Of a stretch of 64,000 nt of DNA, positions 1 to 56,348 are shown in pieces (position 1 is the stretch's first letter; each line of letters begins with the position of its first letter). The notes under the pieces were generated by a model. That model saw nothing but the letters and a program-made list of their open reading frames with translations, searched no databases and had not been told where the DNA came from. Origin of the DNA: a virus (taxonomy: Duplodnaviria > Heunggongvirae > Uroviricota > Caudoviricetes); the IMG/VR virus record IMGVR_UViG_2778261223_000007, positions 1-64,000 of that record. The stretch is one strand, 5' to 3'. Made by a program: the position numbers and the translations under genes.

Positions 1-37
1 ATGCTTCCATCGGAAACGATGATCTGGCAGCCTGAGT

Positions 38-271
38 TCACAGATAAAACACTCTCCAGGAAACCCGGGGCGGTTCAATACAGTGAAGAATACCTGCCTT
101 ACATAACTGCTTGAGCGCTTTTGACTGGCTCAGGATGTCTTCTCCGTAATACTGAAAACAATCATCAACAACAGCGGGATAGCCTGCCGGGGGATTCAGG
201 CTGGTTGGTATAGCTGACGCGATCGCCAGCATTAAGCGATATTGTGTTTTTGATGGGTTAACGTGACTCAT
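38..271 (-). CDS. hypothetical protein (77 aa)
   Basis: ORF from six-frame track; no recognisable motif; at window edge. Confidence 0.25.
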   Translation of the reverse strand: MSHVNPSKTQYRLMLAIASAIPTSLNPPAGYPAVVDDCFQYYGEDILSQSKALKQLCKAGILHCIEPPRVSWRVFYL

Positions 272-680: not shown

Positions 681-838
681 AACTCTAATGATTTGTGTTA
701 GAAAACCAAAATTAAATCACATAACAACATGAGTGTTAATAGATTTTATTTTACTAAACCTATTGACTAAATCACAAAGTAGGTATTGTTAGCCCGTCAA
801 AAGAACCTTCACGCCGCGCCCGAATATAGGGCTTAACC

Positions 839-8015: not shown

Positions 8016-8320
8016 AGCGCAATTTTGAGGGCATTTTTTACATCATCAATTCATCTGTAATGAAGGCATTCTTTACACATTTCAATAATATCAATCAGTT
8101 AACACAGTGAATGATAATAAAAAAGCGCAATAAGAATGCACGATACGCACGATATTGGTTGAGGGTGATTTTTACATAACCCTTATATATCAATGCGTTA
8201 TATAAAAACACAACTTGCTAATAACAAGATACATGCAATTAAGATGTAAAAATTGCCCTCAATTGCCGATCGTTAAGGGCAAATTCTACACCTTGAGAAG
8301 GGTGTAAAAATTGCCCTTAA
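8016..8320. repeat. iteron cluster downstream of rep (incA-like copy-control iterons)
   Basis: ~19-bp iterons TGAGGG(C/T)(A/G)nTTTTACA(T/C)C at 8016-8034, 8160-8178, 8243-8261 (inverted), 8274-8292, 8301-8320 (inverted). Confidence 0.6.
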
Positions 8321-9072
8321 GATTGCTGATAGGTAAATTTTATCCTGGTAACTTTGCCGCCTTCCGTCACCTCTGAGAAGACTATTTTCATTTTTGTATT
8401 TTTTTCAATCTCTGCTACAGCCTTCGTTAAAAAACTTCTCTTAAATTCGGCATACCGCTGATAGCTTTTTGGTAACCCATAACGCTCCCGCATCCATTCG
8501 ACGCCAAGTATGGCAAAGCCGCTTCCATCATCCTTCCTGTACTGGCATAAGGACTCATAAAGCCGCATAGAATAAGGATTTGTAAGGCGAGATACTTCGG
8601 TAAAATTCAGCCTTGTGAATCTCTTATCAAGCAGAGTAAAAAACGGCATGAGATATGGATTAAGATGAATAATGTAAGTCCCGCGCCGTGGTGAATAGGC
8701 ATCCTTAATCATCCAAGGATAAGACTCATAACTGTCTTCTGATTCGGTCGATTCATCAGGGTTATATATCGTAACTTTCTTCTCGCTAAGACCTGAAATG
8801 GCCTTACGAATATCCTTGCTGGCTTCAGCAGAGGGCAAATTATACATCTCTGCATATTCGTTGACCGTCAACTCACAGGCACCTGAACCAAGAACGCCAT
8901 CCTTAGAAGCATAGCGAAGTCTTCCCACCACAATAAACAACAGTCGCTTTTGGTCGCGAGTCAGGTGATAAGCAGCCTCCGTGATCTCATTGGCTTGTGC
9001 CAAACTACGACTAATAGGTGTCGCTGACTCAATCAGGCTGACGGCTTTTGCTGTTAATTCCGCTCTGTTCAT
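8317..9072 (-). CDS. iteron-type plasmid replication initiator (RepA/Rep_3-like)
   Basis: Flanked on both sides by iterons; sequence has the feel of Rep_3 initiators (..NPYSMRLYESL..). Track ORF starts at TTG 9105 inside the first iteron; ATG at 9072 (MNRAELTAKA) is the more likely start. Confidence 0.6.
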   Translation of the reverse strand: MNRAELTAKAVSLIESATPISRSLAQANEITEAAYHLTRDQKRLLFIVVGRLRYASKDGVLGSGACELTVNEYAEMYNLPSAEASKDIRKAISGLSEKKVTIYNPDESTESEDSYESYPWMIKDAYSPRRGTYIIHLNPYLMPFFTLLDKRFTRLNFTEVSRLTNPYSMRLYESLCQYRKDDGSGFAILGVEWMRERYGLPKSYQRYAEFKRSFLTKAVAEIEKNTKMKIVFSEVTEGGKVTRIKFTYQQS

Positions 9073-9096
9073 AACCCTGTGTGATCCTTCAAATGG

Positions 9097-9355
9097 TGAG
9101 GGCAATTTTTACATCACTTTGAGGGCAATTACTACACCTTTTGAGGGCAAATCTTACACCTTTTGAGGGCAAATCTTACACCGATCGTATTTAATTGAGG
9201 GCAAATCTTACACCAGCCTCCTCTACAGCCCGCGCCACTACTGGCTCCAGCGACGCCTAAAAAGGATCTAAAAAGGATTAAAAATGGAAAAAGGTTTATA
9301 AAAATACTCTGTGGATATGTGAGTAGCGTCACTTAAGGTGTAAAAATCACCCTCA
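9097..9355. other. plasmid-type origin: 5 direct iterons at ~22-bp spacing, A-rich stretch, DnaA-box-like site, one inverted iteron
   Basis: Iterons TGAGGGCAA(A/T)T(C/T)TTACA(C/T)C at 9097, 9119, 9142, 9164, 9196; A-rich region 9250-9300; ATATCCACAG (DnaA-box-like, reverse strand) ~9308-9317; inverted iteron 9337-9355. Confidence 0.55.
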
Positions 9356-32654: not shown

Positions 32655-32670
32655 TTAAATTTCTAACATA
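32655..32670 (+). promoter_or_regulatory. operator-like motif (C1-type operator candidate)
   Basis: TTAAATTTCTAACATA upstream of the RepL-like gene; one of eight related sites. Confidence 0.45.
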
Positions 32671-33856: not shown

Positions 33857-33875
33857 TATGTTAGAAAATTAATTT
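33857..33875 (-). promoter_or_regulatory. operator-like motif upstream of the immI-like locus
   Basis: Reverse complement AAATTAATTTTCTAACATA. Confidence 0.45.
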
Positions 33876-43722: not shown

Positions 43723-44217
43723 TTGTTGTTATTATTTCGCATATTTACTATCAATTGGTGTGTTAGAAAAATAGCGCGAAAGAGAAGGCGTCGCAGTGAA
43801 TATTCTGAAACATCCCCACATGCCGCAGCTCTTAGAGAACTGGAGAAAAACCCAGATCTAATCAAAAGGAACCATGAGCATTACGAGCAGGTTCGCGTCC
43901 TGGACTGGATGTATCGCAATATGCGTTATGTGTATGAGCATACTCACGCCACTCCAAACGGTGGCCTGCGAGGCATAAGGACGGCAATAAAAATGGTGGC
44001 AGAGGGCCAAAAGAAGGGATATCCCGATCTTTCTATAGACCTTGCTTGTGGGGGATACCACGGAATGCGCATTGAGATGAAACATGGGAGAAATCGCCTG
44101 ACTCCCGAACAACTCGTCTGGATGACTCGCCTCACAGAAGCCGGTTACTACTGCTTTGAGGCGCGCAGTGCCGCTGAAGCCATAAAAGCTATCACGGAGT
44201 ATGTTTGTCTTGATTAA
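43723..44217 (+). CDS. VRR-NUC domain nuclease candidate (start uncertain)
   Basis: C-terminal ~100 aa show the VRR-NUC pattern (..KKGYPDLSIDL...IEMKHGRNRLTPEQLVWMTRL..); true start probably downstream of the operator-like site at 43758 (GTG 43797 or a later ATG). Confidence 0.45.
   Translation: MLLLFRIFTINWCVRKIARKRRRRSEYSETSPHAAALRELEKNPDLIKRNHEHYEQVRVLDWMYRNMRYVYEHTHATPNGGLRGIRTAIKMVAEGQKKGYPDLSIDLACGGYHGMRIEMKHGRNRLTPEQLVWMTRLTEAGYYCFEARSAAEAIKAITEYVCLD
43758..43773 (-). promoter_or_regulatory. operator-like motif
   Basis: Reverse complement TATTTTTCTAACACAC, upstream of the VRR-NUC coding region. Confidence 0.4.
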
Positions 44218-44801: not shown

Positions 44802-44822
44802 TATGTTAGAAAACTAATTTAA
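44802..44822 (-). promoter_or_regulatory. operator-like motif
   Basis: Reverse complement TTAAATTAGTTTTCTAACATA immediately upstream of the 44842 gene. Confidence 0.45.
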
Positions 44823-46050: not shown

Positions 46051-46068
46051 TGTGTTAGAAATCTAAAA
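46050..46068 (-). promoter_or_regulatory. operator-like motif
   Basis: Reverse complement TTTTAGATTTCTAACACAT overlapping the stop codon of the upstream gene. Confidence 0.4.
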
Positions 46069-46800
46069 TCACAATTCGAATGTGTTGATTGTGAAGGTAA
46101 CTTAACATAGAATTTTCCTTGCTGGTGGGCGGTACCCACGTTTCGCTTGCTGGGCTTGATAGTCACTTATTGGTTATTGTTCGCCCACCAGCATTTAACA
46201 AATTAAAGCGTTAGAAAAGTATAGTAACGCAAGAGCACGCTTTGGCACTGTGCAGGCAAAAGTTCAGCAGGTTTAGTGCGGAAAGTGGTTTCAGAGAGAG
46301 CACTTTGCGGAGTAAACGACAATACATGTTGAGCCACGGAAGGTCTTTTTAAGGTGTTCATTGATGATGGTCCGGCAGAGAGTAACGGTACATGCTGCAT
46401 CTAATCATCAATGCACATCTTCAACATTAAGGAGGCATAGGGATTTTTGTGGCGGTTACCTTTTGCCCTGAGTCTCCTTAATGTTGCAGTAATGCACCTA
46501 TGCGGATGTGGCCTTGCATTGTGTCTTGAAAGAATGGGGTAAGGCCGGGGATATCCCCAGGGGGAGGCACTCCCGCTGCAACGAACAGCCACAGACGGCA
46601 GTCGAGTGATGGGAACGTGAAAAGACTTTAAACCTCGTTATGGCTGGCGTGGCAAACGCGACAACCGAGACAGAGCGGTGACGGGCGGAGAGAGTGCCGC
46701 ATCAAGAAAGAAGCCGACTTGTGATCCCTTTCAGCGGGCATTTGAAAGTGAATCCAACTCAGGCAGTCGGCTTCTTTCTTGTGTGAGATGTAGCGTATTT

Positions 46801-50491: not shown

Positions 50492-50506
50492 AATTTTCTA
50501 ATACAA
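50492..50506 (+). promoter_or_regulatory. operator-like motif (variant)
   Basis: TTAATTTTCTAATACA upstream of the gene preceding pacA. Confidence 0.35.
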
Positions 50507-50581: not shown

Positions 50582-50974
50582 ATGGAACAAATCAGCAGCG
50601 CAGAAATTGCGGATATCATGATCAGGGCTGACTGCTATCTGACAGTCACTGAAATTACCACTCTCGCCAAAGAAAAATACCCTCATCTCCATGTTTCACG
50701 AGTAAGTGTAACTAACATCATTCGTCATTTTGTTCGTTCAAGCAGGGCAATCTGTGAGCTTGATGATCGTGTGTATCCACGAAAATACTGGTTGCATGGC
50801 CTGAACGGATATCAGTTCAAGGTGCGTGGGCGAACCCCGGAATACGGCAGTTTACTGGTTAAAAACTGTAGCAGGAAATCAGTCGAACAGGCGCGAAAAG
50901 AGCAACGAGAGCTGGTGGACATGGCGAATAAGCTGTGGAATGCCGCCGTTAAAAAGCGTGGTGTTGCTTTATGA
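50582..50974 (+). CDS. hypothetical protein in lpa-like position (possible late regulator)
   Basis: 130-aa basic protein immediately upstream of and overlapping pacA-like gene; positional inference only. Confidence 0.3.
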   Translation: MEQISSAEIADIMIRADCYLTVTEITTLAKEKYPHLHVSRVSVTNIIRHFVRSSRAICELDDRVYPRKYWLHGLNGYQFKVRGRTPEYGSLLVKNCSRKSVEQARKEQRELVDMANKLWNAAVKKRGVAL

Positions 50975-52335
50975 GTCTGGTTAATTGGGAGGAGCACCGC
51001 GCCCGCTTTATGGCGTTGCGTGAAGAAAAAGGGATCACTGTAAAGGAATACTGTGAGGAGCATGGCCTTAGCTTCAATACAGCCAGAAAGCATCTCAATA
51101 TGAAAAAAAATGAGGTGCGGTCGCAGGTAAAGACAACAAAAAAAAGCACCAAATCACCTGAAAAAAAACGGGCGGGAAGAGCAACAAAAAAGCTGGAAGA
51201 GGGTGCAGAAAAAACAAAATTTACAGAAATTGACAATTCGCAGGGCGCAGGTTCTTTCCGAAGTATGCCGAGAAAGAAAACTTCGGATCATGAAAATAAT
51301 TCAAATAATAACAATGAGATAAAAGAATCCGTCAGGAGATCATTGCGCGAAAAAATGGCGAAAATGATCCCCGAAGAAGATAAAAGCGCCCCAAAAATTG
51401 AGGGATCTTCTGCAATGATCCCTGACGGTGCTGTGCAGCGTGCCACATTGCCAACTACGAATGTGGCTCGCGATATGATGAAGAACGGCGCAGAAGAACA
51501 CCTGCGGTTAGCAATTCAAATGGCGCAAGAGCGCGCACTTCAGTATCAAAGCATTGTTGATCAGGAGGCCGAACGTCTACAGGCGGAAATAGACGCCTTG
51601 GGCGATAAAGAGCCAGAAGGAATGCACCCTGGGCAGCGCCTTCTCGGTCTAATCAGTGACGCGGCCTACTACATGAATGATTTTATCAGTAGGTTGGCAG
51701 CTATATATCAGTCCGAACAAAAGCTGCGACAGGGGGATGAAAAGCTTCGTCAGAGCGCTCGCCAGCAAGCATTCAAAGAGGCTGAGGCCAGAGAAAAACT
51801 CGAATTAGCACGCCTACAGGCCGAACAGCGTGGCAAAGAGATTGAATATCGCATTGGCGCTGACGCACGCGCAGCCAGAGTTATCGCCGCCGCTATACGT
51901 ATGCGTGAGCGCGAGGAACTGGATGATATCGGTGTTGCTGAATACATCGAGCGCCAGGGTGTCAGCGTCCCGGCTATCCTCGCGGCGCGCGCGGCGAAAG
52001 CTATCACTCTTCTCGAACCACCTGTTTCTGACGTCAATGATGTTGATGATGAACAGCTGGACAAAGAGGCAAGGGAGTTTGCAACGCTTCAGGCTAACCA
52101 TCCGCAATGGCTGGCAGAGCGCCGGGCGGATGTGGCAACCATTGTTGAAGAATTGGGGTGCGGAGATTACGACCGCAATGGCGAGCGTAAAGCAGGAGAA
52201 TTCGAGGCCAACGACGAAGAGCTGGATATTGACCCTTCGGCAACGGCTGAAATTTACGGTGATTATGATGCATCTGATGCAGGGTATGACGCCGGAGATG
52301 ATGATATCGCGATAGAACCGCCGGAGGATGATTAA
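50971..52335 (+). CDS. terminase small subunit candidate (PacA-like)
   Basis: 454 aa; N-terminal HTH-like region, Lys-rich linker, acidic C-terminus; contains a GATC cluster (51286-51420); overlaps the large-subunit gene start. Confidence 0.5.
   Translation: MSLVNWEEHRARFMALREEKGITVKEYCEEHGLSFNTARKHLNMKKNEVRSQVKTTKKSTKSPEKKRAGRATKKLEEGAEKTKFTEIDNSQGAGSFRSMPRKKTSDHENNSNNNNEIKESVRRSLREKMAKMIPEEDKSAPKIEGSSAMIPDGAVQRATLPTTNVARDMMKNGAEEHLRLAIQMAQERALQYQSIVDQEAERLQAEIDALGDKEPEGMHPGQRLLGLISDAAYYMNDFISRLAAIYQSEQKLRQGDEKLRQSARQQAFKEAEAREKLELARLQAEQRGKEIEYRIGADARAARVIAAAIRMREREELDDIGVAEYIERQGVSVPAILAARAAKAITLLEPPVSDVNDVDDEQLDKEAREFATLQANHPQWLAERRADVATIVEELGCGDYDRNGERKAGEFEANDEELDIDPSATAEIYGDYDASDAGYDAGDDDIAIEPPEDD
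51286..51420 (+). other. candidate pac site (GATC / TGATC(A/C) cluster)
   Basis: Five GATC within 135 bp (51286, 51338, 51366, 51404, 51417), several as (T/G)GATC(A/C), inside the small-terminase gene. Confidence 0.4.
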
Positions 52336-53843
52336 TGGCTGGAGGGCGCAAGATTAAATGCGTCACCAGCGATCCACGCTGGCGCGATATGGTAATCAAA
52401 TACCGCTACAACTTTACCCAAGCTGTTGTCGATATTTTTGGGATGTTCCCCTCCCACCAGCAGCAGCAGATCATTCAGTCCGTGCAGGAAACGGGGAGTA
52501 GGACGACCGTCACGTCCGGACACGGAACGGGGAAGTCGTCCCTTACCGCGATGTTGCTGTTGATTTTCATGATCCTGTTCCCCGATGCCCGTGTCATCAT
52601 TGTTGCTAACAAGATAGGCCAGGTAAAAACAGGCGTATTCAAATACGTTAAACAGTATTGGGCGAATGCAGTTAAGCGTCATGGGTGGTTGCAGACCTAT
52701 TTTGTCCTCTCTGACACCATGTTTTATGAGCGCTCCCGTAAGGGGATTTGGGAAGTTCTCTGCAAAGGTTATCGACTCGGCAACGAAGAAGCGCTGGCGG
52801 GGGAACACGCGGCACATTTGCTTCTAATTCTGGATGAAGCATCTGGTATATCTGATAAGGCGATCGGCGTAATGACCGGTGCTCTTACTGAAGAAGATAA
52901 CCGGATGTTGATGCTATCCCAGCCAACAAGGCCAAGTGGTTATTTCTACGATTCGCACCATTCTCAAGCAAAAACCCCAGACAACCCGAAAGGGATCTGG
53001 ACAGCAATTGTTCTTAACTCGGAAGAATCACCGTTCGTCACACCACAATTCATCAAGCAGAAGCTTCTGGAATATGGCGGGCGCGATTCTATTGAGTACA
53101 TGGTCAAGGTGCTTGGTCAGTTCCCACGAGAAATTAACGGCTATTTGCTTGGTCGTGATGAATGCGATCGCGCTGCTCGCCGCAAGGTGTTGTTGGAGAA
53201 AAACTGGGGATGGGTGGCAACGGCTGACGTTGGTAATGGGCGAGATAAGTCGGTCCTCAACATCTGCAAGGTATCAGGTCACAGGGATAAGCGGCGCGTT
53301 GTTAACTTTAAGGTAATGGAGATGCCTGGCACTATGGACCCATTGGCCTTTGCTGACTTCATATATAACGAATGTACGCCGGAAAAATACCCGAATATAA
53401 CAATCGCGGTTGATGCTGATGGTTTTGGTTCTGATACGTGTGCGCAGTTGGTGCGTCGTGGTGCGAACCCGGTACGTATTCGGTGGGGAAAACCCATGTT
53501 TGCGAACAAAGACAGGGAGCGATTTGTTAATCAGCGTGCCTACGCAAATATTATGGCGCGTGATGCCATAAAGTCAGGGCGTATGCGGATAGACAGTGAC
53601 CCTAAAACGGCAGAGCAAGCGTCAAAAATCCCCTTTTTACTGAATGAAGAAGGGAAAATGGCGATGATGCGCAAAGAGCACATGCGGCAAAAGCTAAACA
53701 TCAAATCGCCTGACCGATGGGATACCTACTGCTTCACTATGCTGGTGGACTATGTGCCTGCTAATGAAGATATTGGTGCCGAAATGGCAACTTTCCGAGA
53801 TCAGGTTCTGGCGGATATCGAAATGCCGGATCTGGATATATAA
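52335..53843 (+). CDS. terminase large subunit (PacB-like)
   Basis: 502 aa; Walker A VTSGHGTGKSS and Walker B LLLILDEASG; C-terminal nuclease-like region. Confidence 0.6.
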   Translation: MAGGRKIKCVTSDPRWRDMVIKYRYNFTQAVVDIFGMFPSHQQQQIIQSVQETGSRTTVTSGHGTGKSSLTAMLLLIFMILFPDARVIIVANKIGQVKTGVFKYVKQYWANAVKRHGWLQTYFVLSDTMFYERSRKGIWEVLCKGYRLGNEEALAGEHAAHLLLILDEASGISDKAIGVMTGALTEEDNRMLMLSQPTRPSGYFYDSHHSQAKTPDNPKGIWTAIVLNSEESPFVTPQFIKQKLLEYGGRDSIEYMVKVLGQFPREINGYLLGRDECDRAARRKVLLEKNWGWVATADVGNGRDKSVLNICKVSGHRDKRRVVNFKVMEMPGTMDPLAFADFIYNECTPEKYPNITIAVDADGFGSDTCAQLVRRGANPVRIRWGKPMFANKDRERFVNQRAYANIMARDAIKSGRMRIDSDPKTAEQASKIPFLLNEEGKMAMMRKEHMRQKLNIKSPDRWDTYCFTMLVDYVPANEDIGAEMATFRDQVLADIEMPDLDI

Positions 53844-53844
53844 A

Positions 53845-53861
53845 GCCCCGCGATGCGGGGC
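53845..53861. terminator. hairpin between convergent genes (putative terminator)
   Basis: GCCCCGCGATGCGGGGC perfect hairpin between convergent genes; weak T-run. Confidence 0.35.
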
Positions 53862-53870
53862 CGGTTGTGA

Positions 53871-54908
53871 TTACCAGAGCTTCGCGGCGTACTGCGTTTG
53901 GGGGAATGTGTATCCGTAACGTTCTTCGATTGCTTTGCCGTATTTTTTACGAGCTTCATTCAGTTTAATGCCGGTCAGGTCGTCTCCAGAGGCCATCATT
54001 ACGTCTAACAATTCCAGATCCATTTTATCCAGCCTTGCCATTGCTTCACGTGATGTACGTATCTTACGCTCAATGATATGGCGAATAGCCGGATCGGCAT
54101 CCTCCAGCATCTTAGCGGATTTCTGCTTAAGGCTTTCATTGCGAATATCGATGTTCCTTAAGATGTACGACTTCGCAACGTAGCTTGGCTGGTGTTTTTC
54201 CAGGTCACGAACACGATATAAGTTAAAATCGCCGAGAAGGCTGCAAGGTACCGATTCGACGCCAGAATAAATTGTAATGCTCCGGCGTTCACCAACATTA
54301 TTGACAACGGGGATCGTTGTCTTCGGTTGTCTTGCGAAAACCAATGCGCCATGTGCGCCAACTCTAAAGCGAGAAAGGGCATTGCTGCCTTCGATGTTTG
54401 TTGTCAGCACAACATCTGTATATGCCTCTTTACGCGCCCGGTAGATCTCGCCTTCAGGCTCAGCTTCAAAGAAGCGCTGTTCTTCTTCAAGAGCACCTAC
54501 GATTTGAGAAAAAACCCTATTTTTCAGGCTTTTCTTTATGATTTTGTCGTATTTTTTTAGCAATTGTTCACGTGTAAATGTACGTGTTGTTGTAGCGCTT
54601 TGCACAACGACATGCGTGCTTTGATTGGTGTCCTCAATGATGAATGGGATCGGAGAATATACAGACTCAACAATGTTCGACGCTTTGCCGTCGGCATCGC
54701 GGCACATGTCAACGAAGGCTTTCCATTCAGCAAGACATTTTTCAGCTTCTTCTAATATGTTTTGGTCATGCGTTAATGCAACATGGCGGAATTCCTCGCC
54801 AGCATAACTGGTATCATGGAAAACAGAGTTTGCGACCACCAGCTCTTTCCACCGTTCAGCGGTTTGCAGGAACCGTTTGTACTCTTTCTCGATCGACTTC
54901 TTACTCAT
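53871..54908 (-). CDS. hypothetical protein at the c1-like position (candidate regulator)
   Basis: 345-aa ORF between terminase genes and the lox-like site, with an operator-like motif 15 bp upstream of its start; function not supported by any motif. Confidence 0.35.
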   Translation of the reverse strand: MSKKSIEKEYKRFLQTAERWKELVVANSVFHDTSYAGEEFRHVALTHDQNILEEAEKCLAEWKAFVDMCRDADGKASNIVESVYSPIPFIIEDTNQSTHVVVQSATTTRTFTREQLLKKYDKIIKKSLKNRVFSQIVGALEEEQRFFEAEPEGEIYRARKEAYTDVVLTTNIEGSNALSRFRVGAHGALVFARQPKTTIPVVNNVGERRSITIYSGVESVPCSLLGDFNLYRVRDLEKHQPSYVAKSYILRNIDIRNESLKQKSAKMLEDADPAIRHIIERKIRTSREAMARLDKMDLELLDVMMASGDDLTGIKLNEARKKYGKAIEERYGYTFPQTQYAAKLW

Positions 54909-54922
54909 TATTCCTACTCGAT

Positions 54923-54937
54923 TTAGTTTTCTAACAT
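54923..54937 (+). promoter_or_regulatory. operator-like motif
   Basis: TTTAGTTTTCTAACATA in the promoter region of the minus-strand gene starting at 54908. Confidence 0.45.
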
Positions 54938-55117
54938 AAAATTACTATGACAAATTTATGTCGAATAACAGAGTGAGTAAAGGATCGAACTGTGATTTTT
55001 TGTCATCAATTTTAGAAAACCAACCGTAGAAACCACACTTCGCTAATTAAAGACCATGAAGGCAACGTGTTACTGGTCATCATCAATCTATGATGGATTA
55101 AAAAAAATCGGCATTTT

Positions 55118-55151
55118 ATAACTTTAAATAATTGGCATTATTTAAAGTTAG
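55118..55151 (+). promoter_or_regulatory. lox-family recombination site (rox-like): 13/14-bp inverted arms around a short spacer
   Basis: ATAACTTTAAATA-ATTGGCAT-TATTTAAAGTTAG; core TAACTTTAAATAAT-TGGC-ATTATTTAAAGTTA equals the rox site of phage D6 Dre (reverse orientation) as recalled; 150 bp upstream of the Cre-like gene. Confidence 0.8.
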
Positions 55152-55302
55152 GCTATAATCATGTGTAGATGAACAGTATTGACATCACTGAAAATACGTG
55201 CATCCAATCAAAGGCTTGTATTTTGAAAATTAACTTATAGCTACCCTGTCATTTTTATATTTTTCGCGTAGCTTCATCTGTATATAGAGGTGAAATGGTT
55301 TC

Positions 55303-56331
55303 ATGAGTGAATTAATTATCTCTGGCAGTTCCGGTGGTTTTCTGCGCAACATTGGCAAAGAGTACCAGGAAGCCGCAGAAAACTTTATGCGGTTCATGAA
55401 TGATCAGGGTGCTTATGCGCCGAATACTCTGCGCGACCTCCGGTTGGTGTTTCATTCCTGGGCGCGCTGGTGTCACGCTCGCCAGCTTGCCTGGTTTCCG
55501 ATCTCACCAGAAATGGCCCGCGAGTATTTTCTTCAGTTGCATGATGCCGATCTGGCTTCGACCACCATTGATAAGCACTACGCCATGCTTAACATGCTGC
55601 TTTCTCATTGTGGCCTTCCGCCACTTTCGGATGATAAAAGTGTTTCTCTGGCTATGCGGCGTATCCGGCGCGAAGCGGCAACGGAAAAAGGCGAACGAAC
55701 AGGCCAGGCTATACCGCTGCGATGGGACGACCTGAAACTGCTCGACGTCCTGTTGTCCAGGTCAGAACGGCTGGTGGACCTGCGCAACCGGGCTTTTCTC
55801 TTTGTTGCATACAATACGCTGATGCGTATGTCGGAAATCTCGCGTATTCGTGTAGGAGATCTGGACCAAACAGGTGACACTGTCACGCTACATATTTCAC
55901 ACACGAAGACAATAACGACCGCCGCCGGGCTTGATAAGGTGCTTTCCCGTCGCACTACTGCTGTGCTGAATGACTGGCTGGATGTTTCCGGGCTTCGTGA
56001 ACATCCTGACGCGGTGCTGTTCCCGCCGATACACCGTAGCAATAAGGCCAGGATTACGACAACGCCCCTTACTGCACCTGCAATGGAGAAAATATTCAGC
56101 GACGCCTGGGTGTTGCTGAATAAAAGGGATGCCACGCCAAACAAAGGGAGATACCGGACGTGGACCGGGCATAGTGCTCGTGTCGGGGCCGCTATCGATA
56201 TGGCTGAAAAGCAGGTGTCTATGGTGGAGATTATGCAGGAAGGAACCTGGAAGAAACCGGAAACACTTATGCGGTATCTGCGCCGTGGCGGTGTGTCTGT
56301 GGGGGCTAATAGCCGCTTGATGGATTCATAA
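55303..56331 (+). CDS. dre: Cre-family tyrosine recombinase (Dre-like)
   Basis: 342 aa; aligns along its length with P1 Cre from memory at roughly 40-45% identity (..VSLAMRRIRRE.., ..LRNRAFLFVAYNTLMRMSEISRIRV.., ..WTGHSARVGAAIDMA.., ..WKKPETLMRYLRRG with catalytic Tyr). Confidence 0.85.
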   Translation: MSELIISGSSGGFLRNIGKEYQEAAENFMRFMNDQGAYAPNTLRDLRLVFHSWARWCHARQLAWFPISPEMAREYFLQLHDADLASTTIDKHYAMLNMLLSHCGLPPLSDDKSVSLAMRRIRREAATEKGERTGQAIPLRWDDLKLLDVLLSRSERLVDLRNRAFLFVAYNTLMRMSEISRIRVGDLDQTGDTVTLHISHTKTITTAAGLDKVLSRRTTAVLNDWLDVSGLREHPDAVLFPPIHRSNKARITTTPLTAPAMEKIFSDAWVLLNKRDATPNKGRYRTWTGHSARVGAAIDMAEKQVSMVEIMQEGTWKKPETLMRYLRRGGVSVGANSRLMDS

Positions 56332-56332
56332 A

Positions 56333-56348
56333 TTAAATTTCTAACACA
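56333..56348 (+). promoter_or_regulatory. operator-like motif
   Basis: TTAAATTTCTAACACA two bp after the recombinase stop codon. Confidence 0.45.

What the first reader, a model, noticed from the sequence alone, without database searches (positions are those of the whole stretch)
53871..54937. Unrecognised 345-aa gene at the position where c1 would be expected, with an operator in its own promoter
Between the terminase genes and the lox-like site, where P1 carries c1, there is a minus-strand ORF with no similarity to P1 C1 that I can recognise, and an operator-like motif 15 bp upstream of its start codon (consistent with autoregulation). It may be the repressor that reads the TTTCTAACA operators, or a replacement immunity gene.
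Basis: inference. Interest (0 to 1): 0.45.

Follow-up and report, generated by a model that had tools for sequence, protein, structure and literature searches.

The report
Phage D6 c1 repressor and operators
The ORF is the already annotated c1 immunity repressor of the P1-like phage-plasmid D6, a very distant relative of P1 C1 with its own operator sequence; the one unexpected result is that its predicted fold resembles the replication terminator protein Tus.

Summary
The 345-aa minus-strand ORF (53871-54908) is real. The window is phage D6 or a near-identical D6-like plasmid prophage, and GenBank already annotates this gene as c1, "phage repressor, similar to P1 C1".

Pairwise identity is only 20%, but profile methods show homology. 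Both proteins fall full-length in PHROG 1678, relatives carry Pfam PF27008 (Phage_P7_repressor_C1), and a profile of D6-type proteins retrieves the P1 C1 cluster.

TTTCTAACA occurs 8 times against 0.5 expected. With two one-mismatch copies, the sites lie in gene gaps upstream of c1, lpa, repL, icd/ant and other genes, as P1's C1 operators do. The P1 operator itself is absent.

Relatives with C1 only 43-51% identical keep TTTCTAACA upstream of c1. Relatives at about 30% identity use TTCTAAGG instead. All classes share a TCTAA core.

So this is most likely the D6 master repressor, binding asymmetric dispersed operators and repressing its own promoter. No binding was tested.

The finding as stated is already known. 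The operator classes and the Tus-like fold may be new.

The parts
53871..54908 (-). c1 coding sequence (345 aa), D6-type long form of the P1/P7 C1 repressor family
   Evidence: ORF list. It is 99.7% identical to D6 C1 AAV84948/ASR76322 and 100% identical to the protein on Salmonella plasmid NZ_CP011430. PHROG 1678 E 1.9e-170. NF041318 phage_rep_C1 E 8.6e-6. Homologues carry PF27008 Phage_P7_repressor_C1.
53844..53862 (-). terminator-like GC-rich hairpin plus T run directly after the c1 stop codon, between the convergent pacB and c1
   Evidence: Consensus scan: 8-pair stem with 7 GC pairs. Inferred, not tested.
54912..54915 (-). Shine-Dalgarno AGGA, 3 nt (54909-54911) before the ATG
   Evidence: Sequence.
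54920..54938 (-). proximal operator O(c1)-1. The TTTCTAACA core lies at 54928-54936 on the + strand. It sits downstream of the inferred -10, in the 5' leader of c1.
   Evidence: Exact motif. Second-best PWM score, 31.2, after the 44804 site at 32.5. TGTTAGAAAA is invariant at this place in five relatives with C1 43-100% identical.
54953..54958 (-). inferred -10 (TAAATT) of the c1 promoter
   Evidence: Conserved column block in alignment A3, exactly 17 bp after a conserved TTTACT, in 4 of 5 relatives; coordinates. It falls below the threshold of the consensus scan (8 of 12 matches), so this is inference.
54976..54981 (-). inferred -35 (TTTACT) of the c1 promoter
   Evidence: Alignment A3; coordinates. 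Inference.
55010..55018 (-). distal operator-like site O(c1)-2 (TTTCTAAAA, one mismatch), inverted relative to the proximal site and 82 bp from it centre to centre, upstream of the -35
   Evidence: In relatives the corresponding site is an exact TTTCTAACA 83, 95 and 83 bp from the proximal one (L007, L008, L009).
50495..50503 (+). operator-like site (TTTCTAATA, PWM 23.0), 79-87 nt upstream of the lpa start codon (50582), in the sense orientation
   Evidence: In P1 the C1 operator Olpa lies 71-87 nt upstream of lpa in the same orientation. L007 has an exact copy at the same place.
32660..32668 (+). operator in the gap between pro and repL, 174 nt upstream of repL (32842)
33859..33867 (-). operator in the gap between repL and the icd/antirepressor operon
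44804..44812 (-). operator 15 nt upstream of the pmgS-like gene (44827)
46053..46061 (-). operator just past the stop codon of the pmgS-like gene (ORF ends 46050); a weak second copy (TTTCTAACG) lies at 46209
   Evidence: L007 has two exact copies at the equivalent place.
43761..43769 (-). motif copy with poorer flanks (PWM 23.5), inside the annotated 5' end of the pmgM-like gene, whose TTG start is doubtful
696..704 (-). operator in the divergent gap between the major capsid gene (839, +) and the orf52-like gene (680, -), 15 nt upstream of the latter's ATG
56338..56346 (+). operator in the gap between the dre stop codon (56331) and the orf117-orf116-dut operon
   Evidence: Equivalent sites occur in L007 (8420) and L009 (8403), a one-mismatch copy in L008 (8460), and a different-core site in L014 (18378).

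Best explanation
The ORF is c1 of phage D6 or a D6-like plasmid prophage. It is the primary immunity repressor and a distant homologue of P1/P7 C1. By analogy with P1 C1, the protein probably binds as a monomer to single, non-palindromic sites of about 17 bp, with consensus roughly ATTARTTTTCTAACAYA. These sites are scattered over the genome at promoters of lytic-cycle genes: the late-gene activator lpa, the lytic replication gene repL, the icd/antirepressor operon, the pmgS-like gene, the orf52-like gene and the operon after dre. Binding there would keep the prophage silent.

The protein probably also limits its own synthesis. The inferred c1 promoter (-35 TTTACT, 17 bp, -10 TAAATT) is bracketed by a strong operator in the 5' leader and a weaker inverted one about 82 bp (about eight helical turns) upstream. 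This allows a roadblock and possibly a repression loop.

The operator differs from the P1 operator (ATTGCTCTAATAAATTT) except for a shared TCTAA core. That would make D6 heteroimmune to P1.

The predicted fold of the protein resembles Tus, a monomer that clamps an asymmetric DNA site with a central beta-sheet. This offers a structural rationale for the asymmetric operators. About 100 extra C-terminal residues form long helices that P1 C1 lacks; their role is unknown and may be self-association or partner binding.

Shown here: the ORF, its homology, the motif enrichment and placement, and conservation or change of the motif in relatives. Inferred: binding, repression, promoter position, looping, monomeric binding and a Tus-like DNA contact.
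For: - Identity: 99.8% nucleotide identity to D6 records in which the gene is annotated c1.
- Homology to P1 C1: BLASTP 20% identity over 242 aa, E 9e-8. Both proteins match PHROG 1678 over their full length. NCBIfam phage_rep_C1 hits residues 7-240 at E 8.6e-6. Homologues carry PF27008 Phage_P7_repressor_C1. A profile of D6-type proteins searched against 1.84 billion representatives finds 84 proteins, including P0082, which is 53% identical to P1 C1.
- Synteny: pacA-pacB, then c1 convergent, then the rox/lox site and the recombinase gene, as in P1.
- Motif enrichment: 8 exact copies against 0.53 expected.
- Motif placement: at least 7 of 8 exact copies lie in gene gaps or at gene boundaries (binomial P about 6e-5, using the 19% non-coding fraction of one annotated 20-kb stretch of D6).
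- Sites upstream of lpa, repL and c1 parallel the annotated or published P1 C1 targets (PMC8546580).
- No P1-type operator in the window at up to 3 mismatches.
- Relatives with C1 43-51% identical keep TGTTAGAAA 15-30 bp before the true c1 start; those with enough upstream sequence (L007-L009) also keep an inverted exact copy 83-95 bp upstream.
- Relatives with C1 about 29-30% identical lack TTTCTAACA. They carry TTCTAAGG at equivalent gaps, 8 copies against 1.3 expected in L014.
Against: - No experiment on D6 C1 was found. The two papers most likely to discuss it (Sauer and McDermott 2004; Gilcrease and Casjens 2018) are not in the held library.
- The NCBIfam equivalog cut-off is missed by far (25.5 against 500 bits), so shared function rests on distant homology plus context.
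- The promoter hexamers are weak (8 of 12 matches) and were not found by the consensus scan.
- One motif copy (43761) lies inside an annotated coding region.
- The D6 distal site has a mismatch.
- No Coi, ImcA or ImcB homologue is present, and Lxc is reported absent from D6-like elements (PMC6799933). The regulatory circuit around C1 therefore differs from P1.
- The Tus similarity is at fold level only: TM-scores are 0.33-0.44, and hhalign probability is 4-9%. The profile search of PDB sequences does not find Tus.
- The TTCTAAGG enrichment in the 30% relatives is modest. In L014 the largest of 200 shuffles gave 7 against 8 observed; in L013 the observed 4 copies were reached by a shuffle.
Confidence: 0.85

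Rival explanations
1. The ORF is a C1 homologue, but a different factor reads the TTTCTAACA sites, for example another phage regulator, a late-promoter element or a host protein. C1 would then bind some other, unidentified sequence.
For: No binding data exist. The motif also occurs next to morphogenesis-type genes (pmgS-like, orf52/capsid gap). A late-promoter-like box, ATGTGATTT, lies directly upstream of the 696 site.
Against: The P1 late-promoter -22 box (ATGTGACTT) is unrelated to the motif. The motif sits where P1 has C1 operators: upstream of c1, lpa and repL, and after the recombinase gene. The motif is constant while C1 stays at 43% identity or more and changes when C1 drops to about 30%. 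It shares the TCTAA core with the experimentally defined P1 C1 operator. It is among the most over-represented 9-mers in the window; the others are Chi-related and iteron-related words.
Confidence: 0.07
2. The ORF is a non-homologous replacement immunity gene, or a gene of unrelated function that merely occupies the c1 slot.
For: Pairwise identity to P1 C1 is only 20%. There is no hit in the 2025 Pfam copy. The protein is 62 aa longer than P1 C1. coi, imcA and imcB are absent.
Against: Profile-level homology is colinear over about 240 residues, with a continuum of intermediates between the D6 and P1 types. The neighbouring genes are also strongly diverged from P1 (PacB 56%, Lpa 31%). This is general divergence, not a cassette swap.
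Confidence: 0.03
3. The protein acts primarily as a Tus-like replication-fork barrier or plasmid replication and partition factor, binding TTTCTAACA sites as polar fork-arrest sites rather than as a transcriptional repressor.
For: Tus is the only significant structural neighbour. The sites are single, asymmetric and dispersed, as Ter sites are.
Against: The homologous P1 C1 is an experimentally established transcriptional repressor (PMC8546580). The sites cluster at promoter-proximal gaps, including the protein's own promoter and lpa. Their orientations show no simple polarity about an origin: the strands along the window read -, +, -, -, -, -, +, +, -, +. There is no significant sequence similarity to Tus.
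Confidence: 0.03

Closest known systems
C1 repressor of phages P1 and P7 (Pfam PF27008 Phage_P7_repressor_C1; NCBIfam NF041318; PHROG 1678)
   Same: Homologous over about 240 N-terminal residues. The genes hold the same genomic slot, convergent with pacB and next to the lox/rox site and the recombinase gene. Both have many single asymmetric operator-like sites dispersed over the genome, including upstream of c1, lpa and repL. The operators share a TCTAA core. No helix-turn-helix domain is detectable.
   Different: Only 20% identical, and far below the equivalog cut-off. It has 62 more residues, with a helical C-terminal extension of about 100 aa. The operator is ...TTTTCTAACAYA rather than ATTGCTCTAATAAATTT, and no P1-type operator is present. 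There are no coi/imcA/imcB genes between c1 and the recombination site, and the c1 region has two operator-like sites rather than five. The co-repressor Lxc is reported absent from D6-like elements (PMC6799933).
Tus, the E. coli replication terminus site-binding protein (PF05472; PDB 1ecr, 4xr0-4xr2)
   Different: There is no significant sequence similarity: hhalign probability is 4-9%, and only 2 of 82 family members touch Pfam Ter, at E about 0.01. TM-scores are modest (0.33-0.44). Tus arrests replication forks on the host chromosome, whereas this is a phage transcriptional repressor.
Lambda CI-type repressors (HTH plus S24 peptidase domains)
   Same: The same biological role: maintenance of lysogeny, immunity and negative autoregulation, possibly with looping between separated operators.
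   Different: There is no HTH or S24 domain, so RecA-mediated self-cleavage is not expected. Operators are single and asymmetric, not palindromic. They are dispersed over the genome rather than clustered in one immunity region.

Membership tests
P1/P7 C1 repressor family (PF27008 / PHROG 1678) | Sequence homology to P1/P7 C1 across the conserved N-terminal ~240 residues | tested here: met
   PHROG 1678: D6 protein E 1.9e-170 and P1 C1 E 2.6e-140. BLASTP E 9e-8. The D6-type profile retrieves the P1 C1 cluster representative P0082 at E 4.5e-6 in 1.84 billion proteins. PF27008 is precomputed on all close homologues.
P1/P7 C1 repressor family (PF27008 / PHROG 1678) | NCBIfam NF041318 equivalog score (same function and specificity as P1 C1) | tested here: not met
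   25.5 bits against a cut-off of 500. It is a family member but not an equivalog.
P1/P7 C1 repressor family (PF27008 / PHROG 1678) | Gene position: convergent with pacB, adjacent to the lox-type site and the cre-type recombinase gene | tested here: met
   The same arrangement is seen in relatives L007-L010, L013 and L014.
P1/P7 C1 repressor family (PF27008 / PHROG 1678) | Multiple dispersed, asymmetric operators at promoters of c1, lpa, repL and other genes | tested here: met
   Sequence evidence only: 8 exact and 2 near-exact non-palindromic sites in gene gaps. Occupancy was not tested.
P1/P7 C1 repressor family (PF27008 / PHROG 1678) | Recognition of the P1 operator ATTGCTCTAATAAATTT (P1/P7 immunity specificity) | tested here: not met
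   No match in the window at up to 3 mismatches. Only the TCTAA core is shared.
P1/P7 C1 repressor family (PF27008 / PHROG 1678) | Associated immC genes coi, imcA and imcB upstream of c1 | tested here: not met
   tblastn gives no hit better than E 2.8. Only about 210 bp separate c1 from rox.
P1/P7 C1 repressor family (PF27008 / PHROG 1678) | Demonstrated operator binding, repression and immunity | not testable with these tools
   Needs EMSA or footprinting and genetics.
Tus / Ter-binding protein family (PF05472) | Tus fold | tested here: met
Tus / Ter-binding protein family (PF05472) | Sequence membership (Pfam Ter profile) | tested here: not met
   The window protein has no Pfam hit. Only 2 of 82 family members reach E about 0.01. 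hhalign probability is 8.8% and 4.4%. The profile search of PDB sequences does not find Tus.
Tus / Ter-binding protein family (PF05472) | Polar replication-fork arrest at its binding sites | not testable with these tools
   Needs fork-arrest assays.
Lambda CI / LexA-type repressors | HTH DNA-binding domain and S24 self-cleavage domain | tested here: not met
   No Pfam domain at E up to 1. The fold search gives no HTH repressor among significant hits.

The most novel reading that the evidence does not exclude
The whole P1/P7/D6 C1 repressor family may be built on a Tus-like fold. On this reading these phage-plasmid master repressors clamp single asymmetric operators as monomers, in the manner of the replication terminator protein. 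Immunity specificity would be set by the few bases flanking an invariant TCTAA core: CTCTAAT in P1, TTCTAAC in D6, TTCTAAG in a Citrobacter/Leclercia group. This would explain the long-known oddity that P1 C1 has no helix-turn-helix and uses non-palindromic operators. It would also link a phage repressor family to a fold so far regarded as specific to Tus. I found no paper in the held library stating this, but I cannot exclude that it is noted elsewhere, for example in the Pfam entry.
Probability: 0.5. Interest if true: 0.6.

Novelty: already known. Interest (0 to 1): 0.3.

Why it matters
As stated, the finding re-identifies an annotated gene, so it adds little. Three by-products are more useful.

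First, it gives an explicit operator consensus and a site map for the D6-type immunity system. D6-like phage-plasmids are common in E. coli and Salmonella: 149 plasmid records carry a homologue.

Second, it shows at least three operator specificity classes built around one TCTAA core. This offers a simple system for studying how heteroimmunity evolves.

Third, it predicts a Tus-like fold for a classical repressor family that has no solved structure. If that fold holds, it would explain asymmetric, monomeric operator recognition. The D6 C1-operator pair could also serve as a regulatory part orthogonal to P1's, alongside Dre/rox.

Tried and rejected
- Literature: Sauer and McDermott 2004, Gilcrease and Casjens 2018 and Lobocka 2004 are not in the held library. 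I therefore could not check whether the D6 operators have been described.
- Searching papers for the motif string returned only unrelated primer sequences.
- The Pfam (2025 copy) scan of the ORF and of P1 C1 gave nothing.
- The PDB sequence search with the protein and with the family profile gave nothing relevant.
- The second word-indexed homologue search added only one protein.
- Sequence links between C1 and Tus were not significant: hhalign against one Tus sequence, hhalign against a 119-sequence low-diversity Tus alignment, and a local Tus HMM against all C1 members. The Tus homologue search returned only proteins at 81% identity or more, so it could not supply a diverse profile.
- Coi, ImcA and ImcB homologues: none in the window.
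- The idea that the motif is a late-promoter element was rejected, because the P1 late -22 box is a different sequence.
- My first coordinate mapping put the 696 site inside orf52. It was wrong because of an indel relative to D6, and was corrected by BLAST and the ORF list.

Full report
**1. What is there**

The window carries a 345-codon ORF on the minus strand at 53871..54908, with an ATG start. An AGGA Shine-Dalgarno sequence lies at 54912-54915. A GC-rich hairpin with a T run at 53844-53862 follows the stop codon.

The ORF is convergent with pacB (52335-53843) and follows pacA (50971-52335). On its upstream side lie a 32-bp inverted-repeat recombination site at 55119-55150 and a 342-aa tyrosine recombinase gene at 55303-56331.

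**2. Source and existing annotation**

Megablast and tblastn against the phage collection give 99.8% nucleotide identity and 99.7% protein identity to Escherichia phage D6 (AY753669, MF356679/NC_050154).

In both records the ORF is annotated as c1. AY753669 reads [quoted passage not shown]. MF356679 reads "prophage repressor; similar to P1 gene C1". The neighbours are annotated pacA, pacB, rox and dre.

The window is colinear with D6 at 98.9-99.9% identity. Its first 77 nt do not align, and the coordinate offset differs by 222 bp between the two ends of the window, so an indel lies somewhere between them. It is therefore a D6-like plasmid prophage rather than the D6 isolate itself. The protein is 100% identical to that of Salmonella plasmid pYU39_89 (NZ_CP011430).

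In all, 149 plasmid records hold a homologue, mostly from Escherichia and Salmonella. The gene is thus not unrecognised.

**3. Is it related to P1 C1?**

Pairwise BLASTP against P1 C1, taken from NC_005856, gives 20% identity over 242 residues. The alignment is colinear (7-237 against 8-242) with E 9e-8.

- Both proteins match PHROG 1678 over their full lengths: D6 E 1.9e-170 and P1 C1 E 2.6e-140.
- The NCBIfam equivalog model phage_rep_C1 hits residues 7-240 at E 8.6e-6. The score is 25.5 bits against a cut-off of 500.
- All close homologues carry the precomputed Pfam family PF27008, Phage_P7_repressor_C1. This family is newer than the Pfam copy I could scan, which returned nothing.
- A profile of nine D6-type proteins (A1) was searched against 1.84 billion cluster representatives. 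It finds 84 proteins in two length classes, 345-380 aa and 250-290 aa. One of them is P0082, which is 53% identical to P1 C1.

Homology is therefore secure, but membership as an equivalog is not.

The neighbours are also far from P1: PacB is 56% identical and Lpa 31%. C1 is the most diverged gene of a generally diverged genome, not a foreign cassette.

**4. The motif**

TTTCTAACA occurs 8 times in 64 kb against 0.53 expected. None of 100 shuffles reaches 8. Apart from Chi-related and iteron-related words, it is among the most frequent 9-mers in the window.

Aligning the copies extends the conserved block to about 17 bp, roughly ATTARTTTTCTAACAYA, with no dyad symmetry. A weight matrix also finds TTTCTAATA at 50495, and a one-mismatch search finds TTTCTAAAA at 55010.

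Placed on the D6 annotation and on the window's ORFs, the sites lie as follows:

| Site (core start, strand) | Context |
|---|---|
| 54928 (+) | 19 nt before the c1 ATG |
| 55010 (-) | 82 bp further upstream of c1, inverted |
| 50495 (+) | 79-87 nt before the lpa ATG |
| 32660 (+) | pro-repL gap |
| 33859 (-) | repL-icd gap |
| 44804 (-) | 15 nt before the pmgS-like gene |
| 46053 (-) | just after the pmgS-like gene |
| 696 (-) | capsid/orf52 divergent gap, 15 nt before the orf52-like ATG |
| 56338 (+) | between dre and the next operon |
| 43761 (-) | inside the annotated 5' end of the pmgM-like gene |

The pmgM-like gene has a TTG start and an implausible N-terminus, so that start is doubtful.

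About 19% of one annotated 20-kb stretch of D6 is non-coding. On that figure, at least 7 of 8 exact copies falling in gaps has a binomial probability of about 6e-5, and base composition does not explain it.

**5. Comparison with the P1 circuit**

In P1, C1 binds 22 dispersed asymmetric 17-bp operators with consensus ATTGCTCTAATAAATTT. It controls repL and lpa, among others, and its own promoters (PMC8546580; P1 record features).

P1's Olpa lies 71-87 nt upstream of lpa in the sense orientation. The D6 site lies 79-87 nt upstream of lpa, also in the sense orientation.

No P1-type operator exists in the window at up to 3 mismatches. The two operator types share only the TCTAA core: CTCTAAT in P1 and TTCTAAC in D6.

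Between c1 and rox there are only about 210 bp. No homologue of coi, imcA or imcB is present. Lxc is reported missing from D6-like elements (PMC6799933).

The P1 late-promoter box ATGTGACTT is a different sequence, so the motif is not a late-promoter element.

**6. Evidence from relatives**

Four metagenomic contigs encode C1 proteins 43-51% identical to the window protein, in the same synteny (L007-L010).

All four keep TGTTAGAAA(A) 15-30 bp before the true c1 start. The three with enough upstream sequence also keep an exact inverted copy 83, 95 and 83 bp upstream. Two of the gene calls (P0008, P0011) begin too far upstream and run over the operator.

L007 also has sites before lpa. L007 and L009 have exact sites after the recombinase gene, and L008 has a one-mismatch copy there.

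The alignment of the c1 upstream regions shows a conserved TTTACT, then 17 bp, then TAAATT, in 4 of 5 sequences. I take this as the c1 promoter, with the -35 at 54976-54981 and the -10 at 54953-54958. It is weak by consensus, and the scan tool did not report it.

On this reading the strong operator lies in the leader and the weak one upstream of the -35. They are about eight helical turns apart.

Two plasmids with C1 about 29-30% identical were also examined: Leclercia pE1_003 (L013) and a Citrobacter freundii plasmid (L014). Both lack TTTCTAACA. Both carry TTCTAAGG, at 8 copies against 1.3 expected in L014 and 4 against 0.9 in L013.

The L014 copies lie after the recombinase gene, about 90 bp before c1, before a ref-family gene and after the head protease gene. 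This enrichment is modest: the largest shuffle gave 7 against 8 observed in L014, and a shuffle reached the observed 4 in L013.

The operator sequence therefore stays fixed over moderate C1 divergence and changes over large divergence, while TCTAA is kept.

**7. Structure**

With the 82-sequence family alignment (A2), AlphaFold2 gives pLDDT 94.6 and pTM 0.80.

- Residues 1-232 form a mixed alpha/beta body.
- Residues 233-307 form two long helices.
- Residues 316-342 form three short helices.
- The last ~100 residues are absent from the short, P1-type class.

Across the family, P88 and R159 are invariant, and F13, R41, W62 and G187 are nearly so.

Foldseek against the PDB returns four significant hits, all E. 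coli Tus: 4xr2, 4xr1, 4xr0 and 1ecr. Their E-values run from 1.4e-7 to 4.5e-6, with probability 1.00 and TM-scores of 0.33-0.44. The next hit has E 0.33.

No significant sequence similarity backs this up:
- The family profile finds no Tus sequence among the PDB chains.
- hhalign gives probability 8.8% and 4.4%.
- A local Tus HMM gives nothing significant.
- In a Pfam scan of all 82 members, Ter (PF05472) is the family touched by the most members, but that is only 2, with best E 0.012.

The fold resemblance is therefore supported, and common descent remains open. I could not inspect the superposition, so I do not know whether the DNA-contacting sheet corresponds. No paper in the held library connects C1 with Tus.

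**8. Verdict**

The claim of no similarity, and the implied novelty, are wrong. The best explanation is that this is the D6 C1 master repressor, reading its own class of asymmetric operators and regulating itself (confidence 0.85). Binding, repression, promoter position and looping are all inferred.

The finding is already known as an annotated gene. The operator map, the three operator classes around TCTAA, and the Tus-like fold are by-products that may be new and are cheap to test.

Noticed in passing
window 8025-9215 (copies at 8025, 8254, 9119, 9141, 9163, 9195): Iteron-like repeats GTGTAAGATTTGCCCTCAA. Three copies lie 22 bp apart (9119, 9141, 9163), a fourth is 32 bp further on (9195), and two more lie about 1 kb away (8025, 8254). 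This is probably the plasmid replication origin or copy-control region of the prophage.
   Followed up: partly
whole window: Chi (GCTGGTGG) occurs 31 times in 64 kb, 23 times on the + strand and 8 on the - strand. This is far above chance, and the related word CCACCAGCA is the most frequent 9-mer.
   Followed up: no
window 55119-55159: The best sigma-70-like promoter in the region (TTGGCA, 16 bp, TATAAT; 11 of 12 matches) faces dre. Its -35 lies inside the rox site (55119-55150), so recombinase bound at rox could affect dre transcription.
   Followed up: no
window 1-77, and somewhere between about 2900 and 31100: The window is not identical to the D6 isolate. Its first 77 nt do not align with MF356679, and the coordinate offset between the two ends differs by 222 bp, so there is an indel. 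The C1 protein is 100% identical to that of Salmonella plasmid NZ_CP011430.
   Followed up: partly
window 43723-43800: The pmgM-like gene is annotated in D6 with a TTG start that gives an odd N-terminus (LLLLFRIFTINWCVRK...). A TTTCTAACA copy lies 38 nt inside it, with a TTTACT hexamer 11 nt upstream of the motif on the + strand, as at the c1 promoter. The true start may be further downstream, and a C1-controlled promoter may sit here.
   Followed up: partly
window 705-722 (- strand): A sequence one mismatch from the P1 late-promoter -22 box (ATGTGATTT against ATGTGACTT) lies 8 bp upstream of the operator core (TTTCTAACA) before the orf52-like gene. This suggests a late promoter overlapped by a repressor site.
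   Followed up: no
L013 (Leclercia pE1_003) and L014 (Citrobacter freundii plasmid): P1/D6-like phage-plasmids with C1 about 30% identical use a third candidate operator, TTCTAAGG(c/t)ttt. In L014 copies lie at the recombinase-downstream gap, about 90 bp before c1, before a ref-family gene and after the head protease gene; in L013 they lie at the recombinase-downstream gap and 48 bp before c1.
   Followed up: partly
L009 10001-11080 and L010 572-1714: The automatic gene calls for two C1 homologues (P0011, 359 aa; P0008, 380 aa) start too far upstream and run across the conserved operator. The alignment indicates the true starts are 11 codons (P0011) and 29 codons (P0008) downstream.
   Followed up: yes
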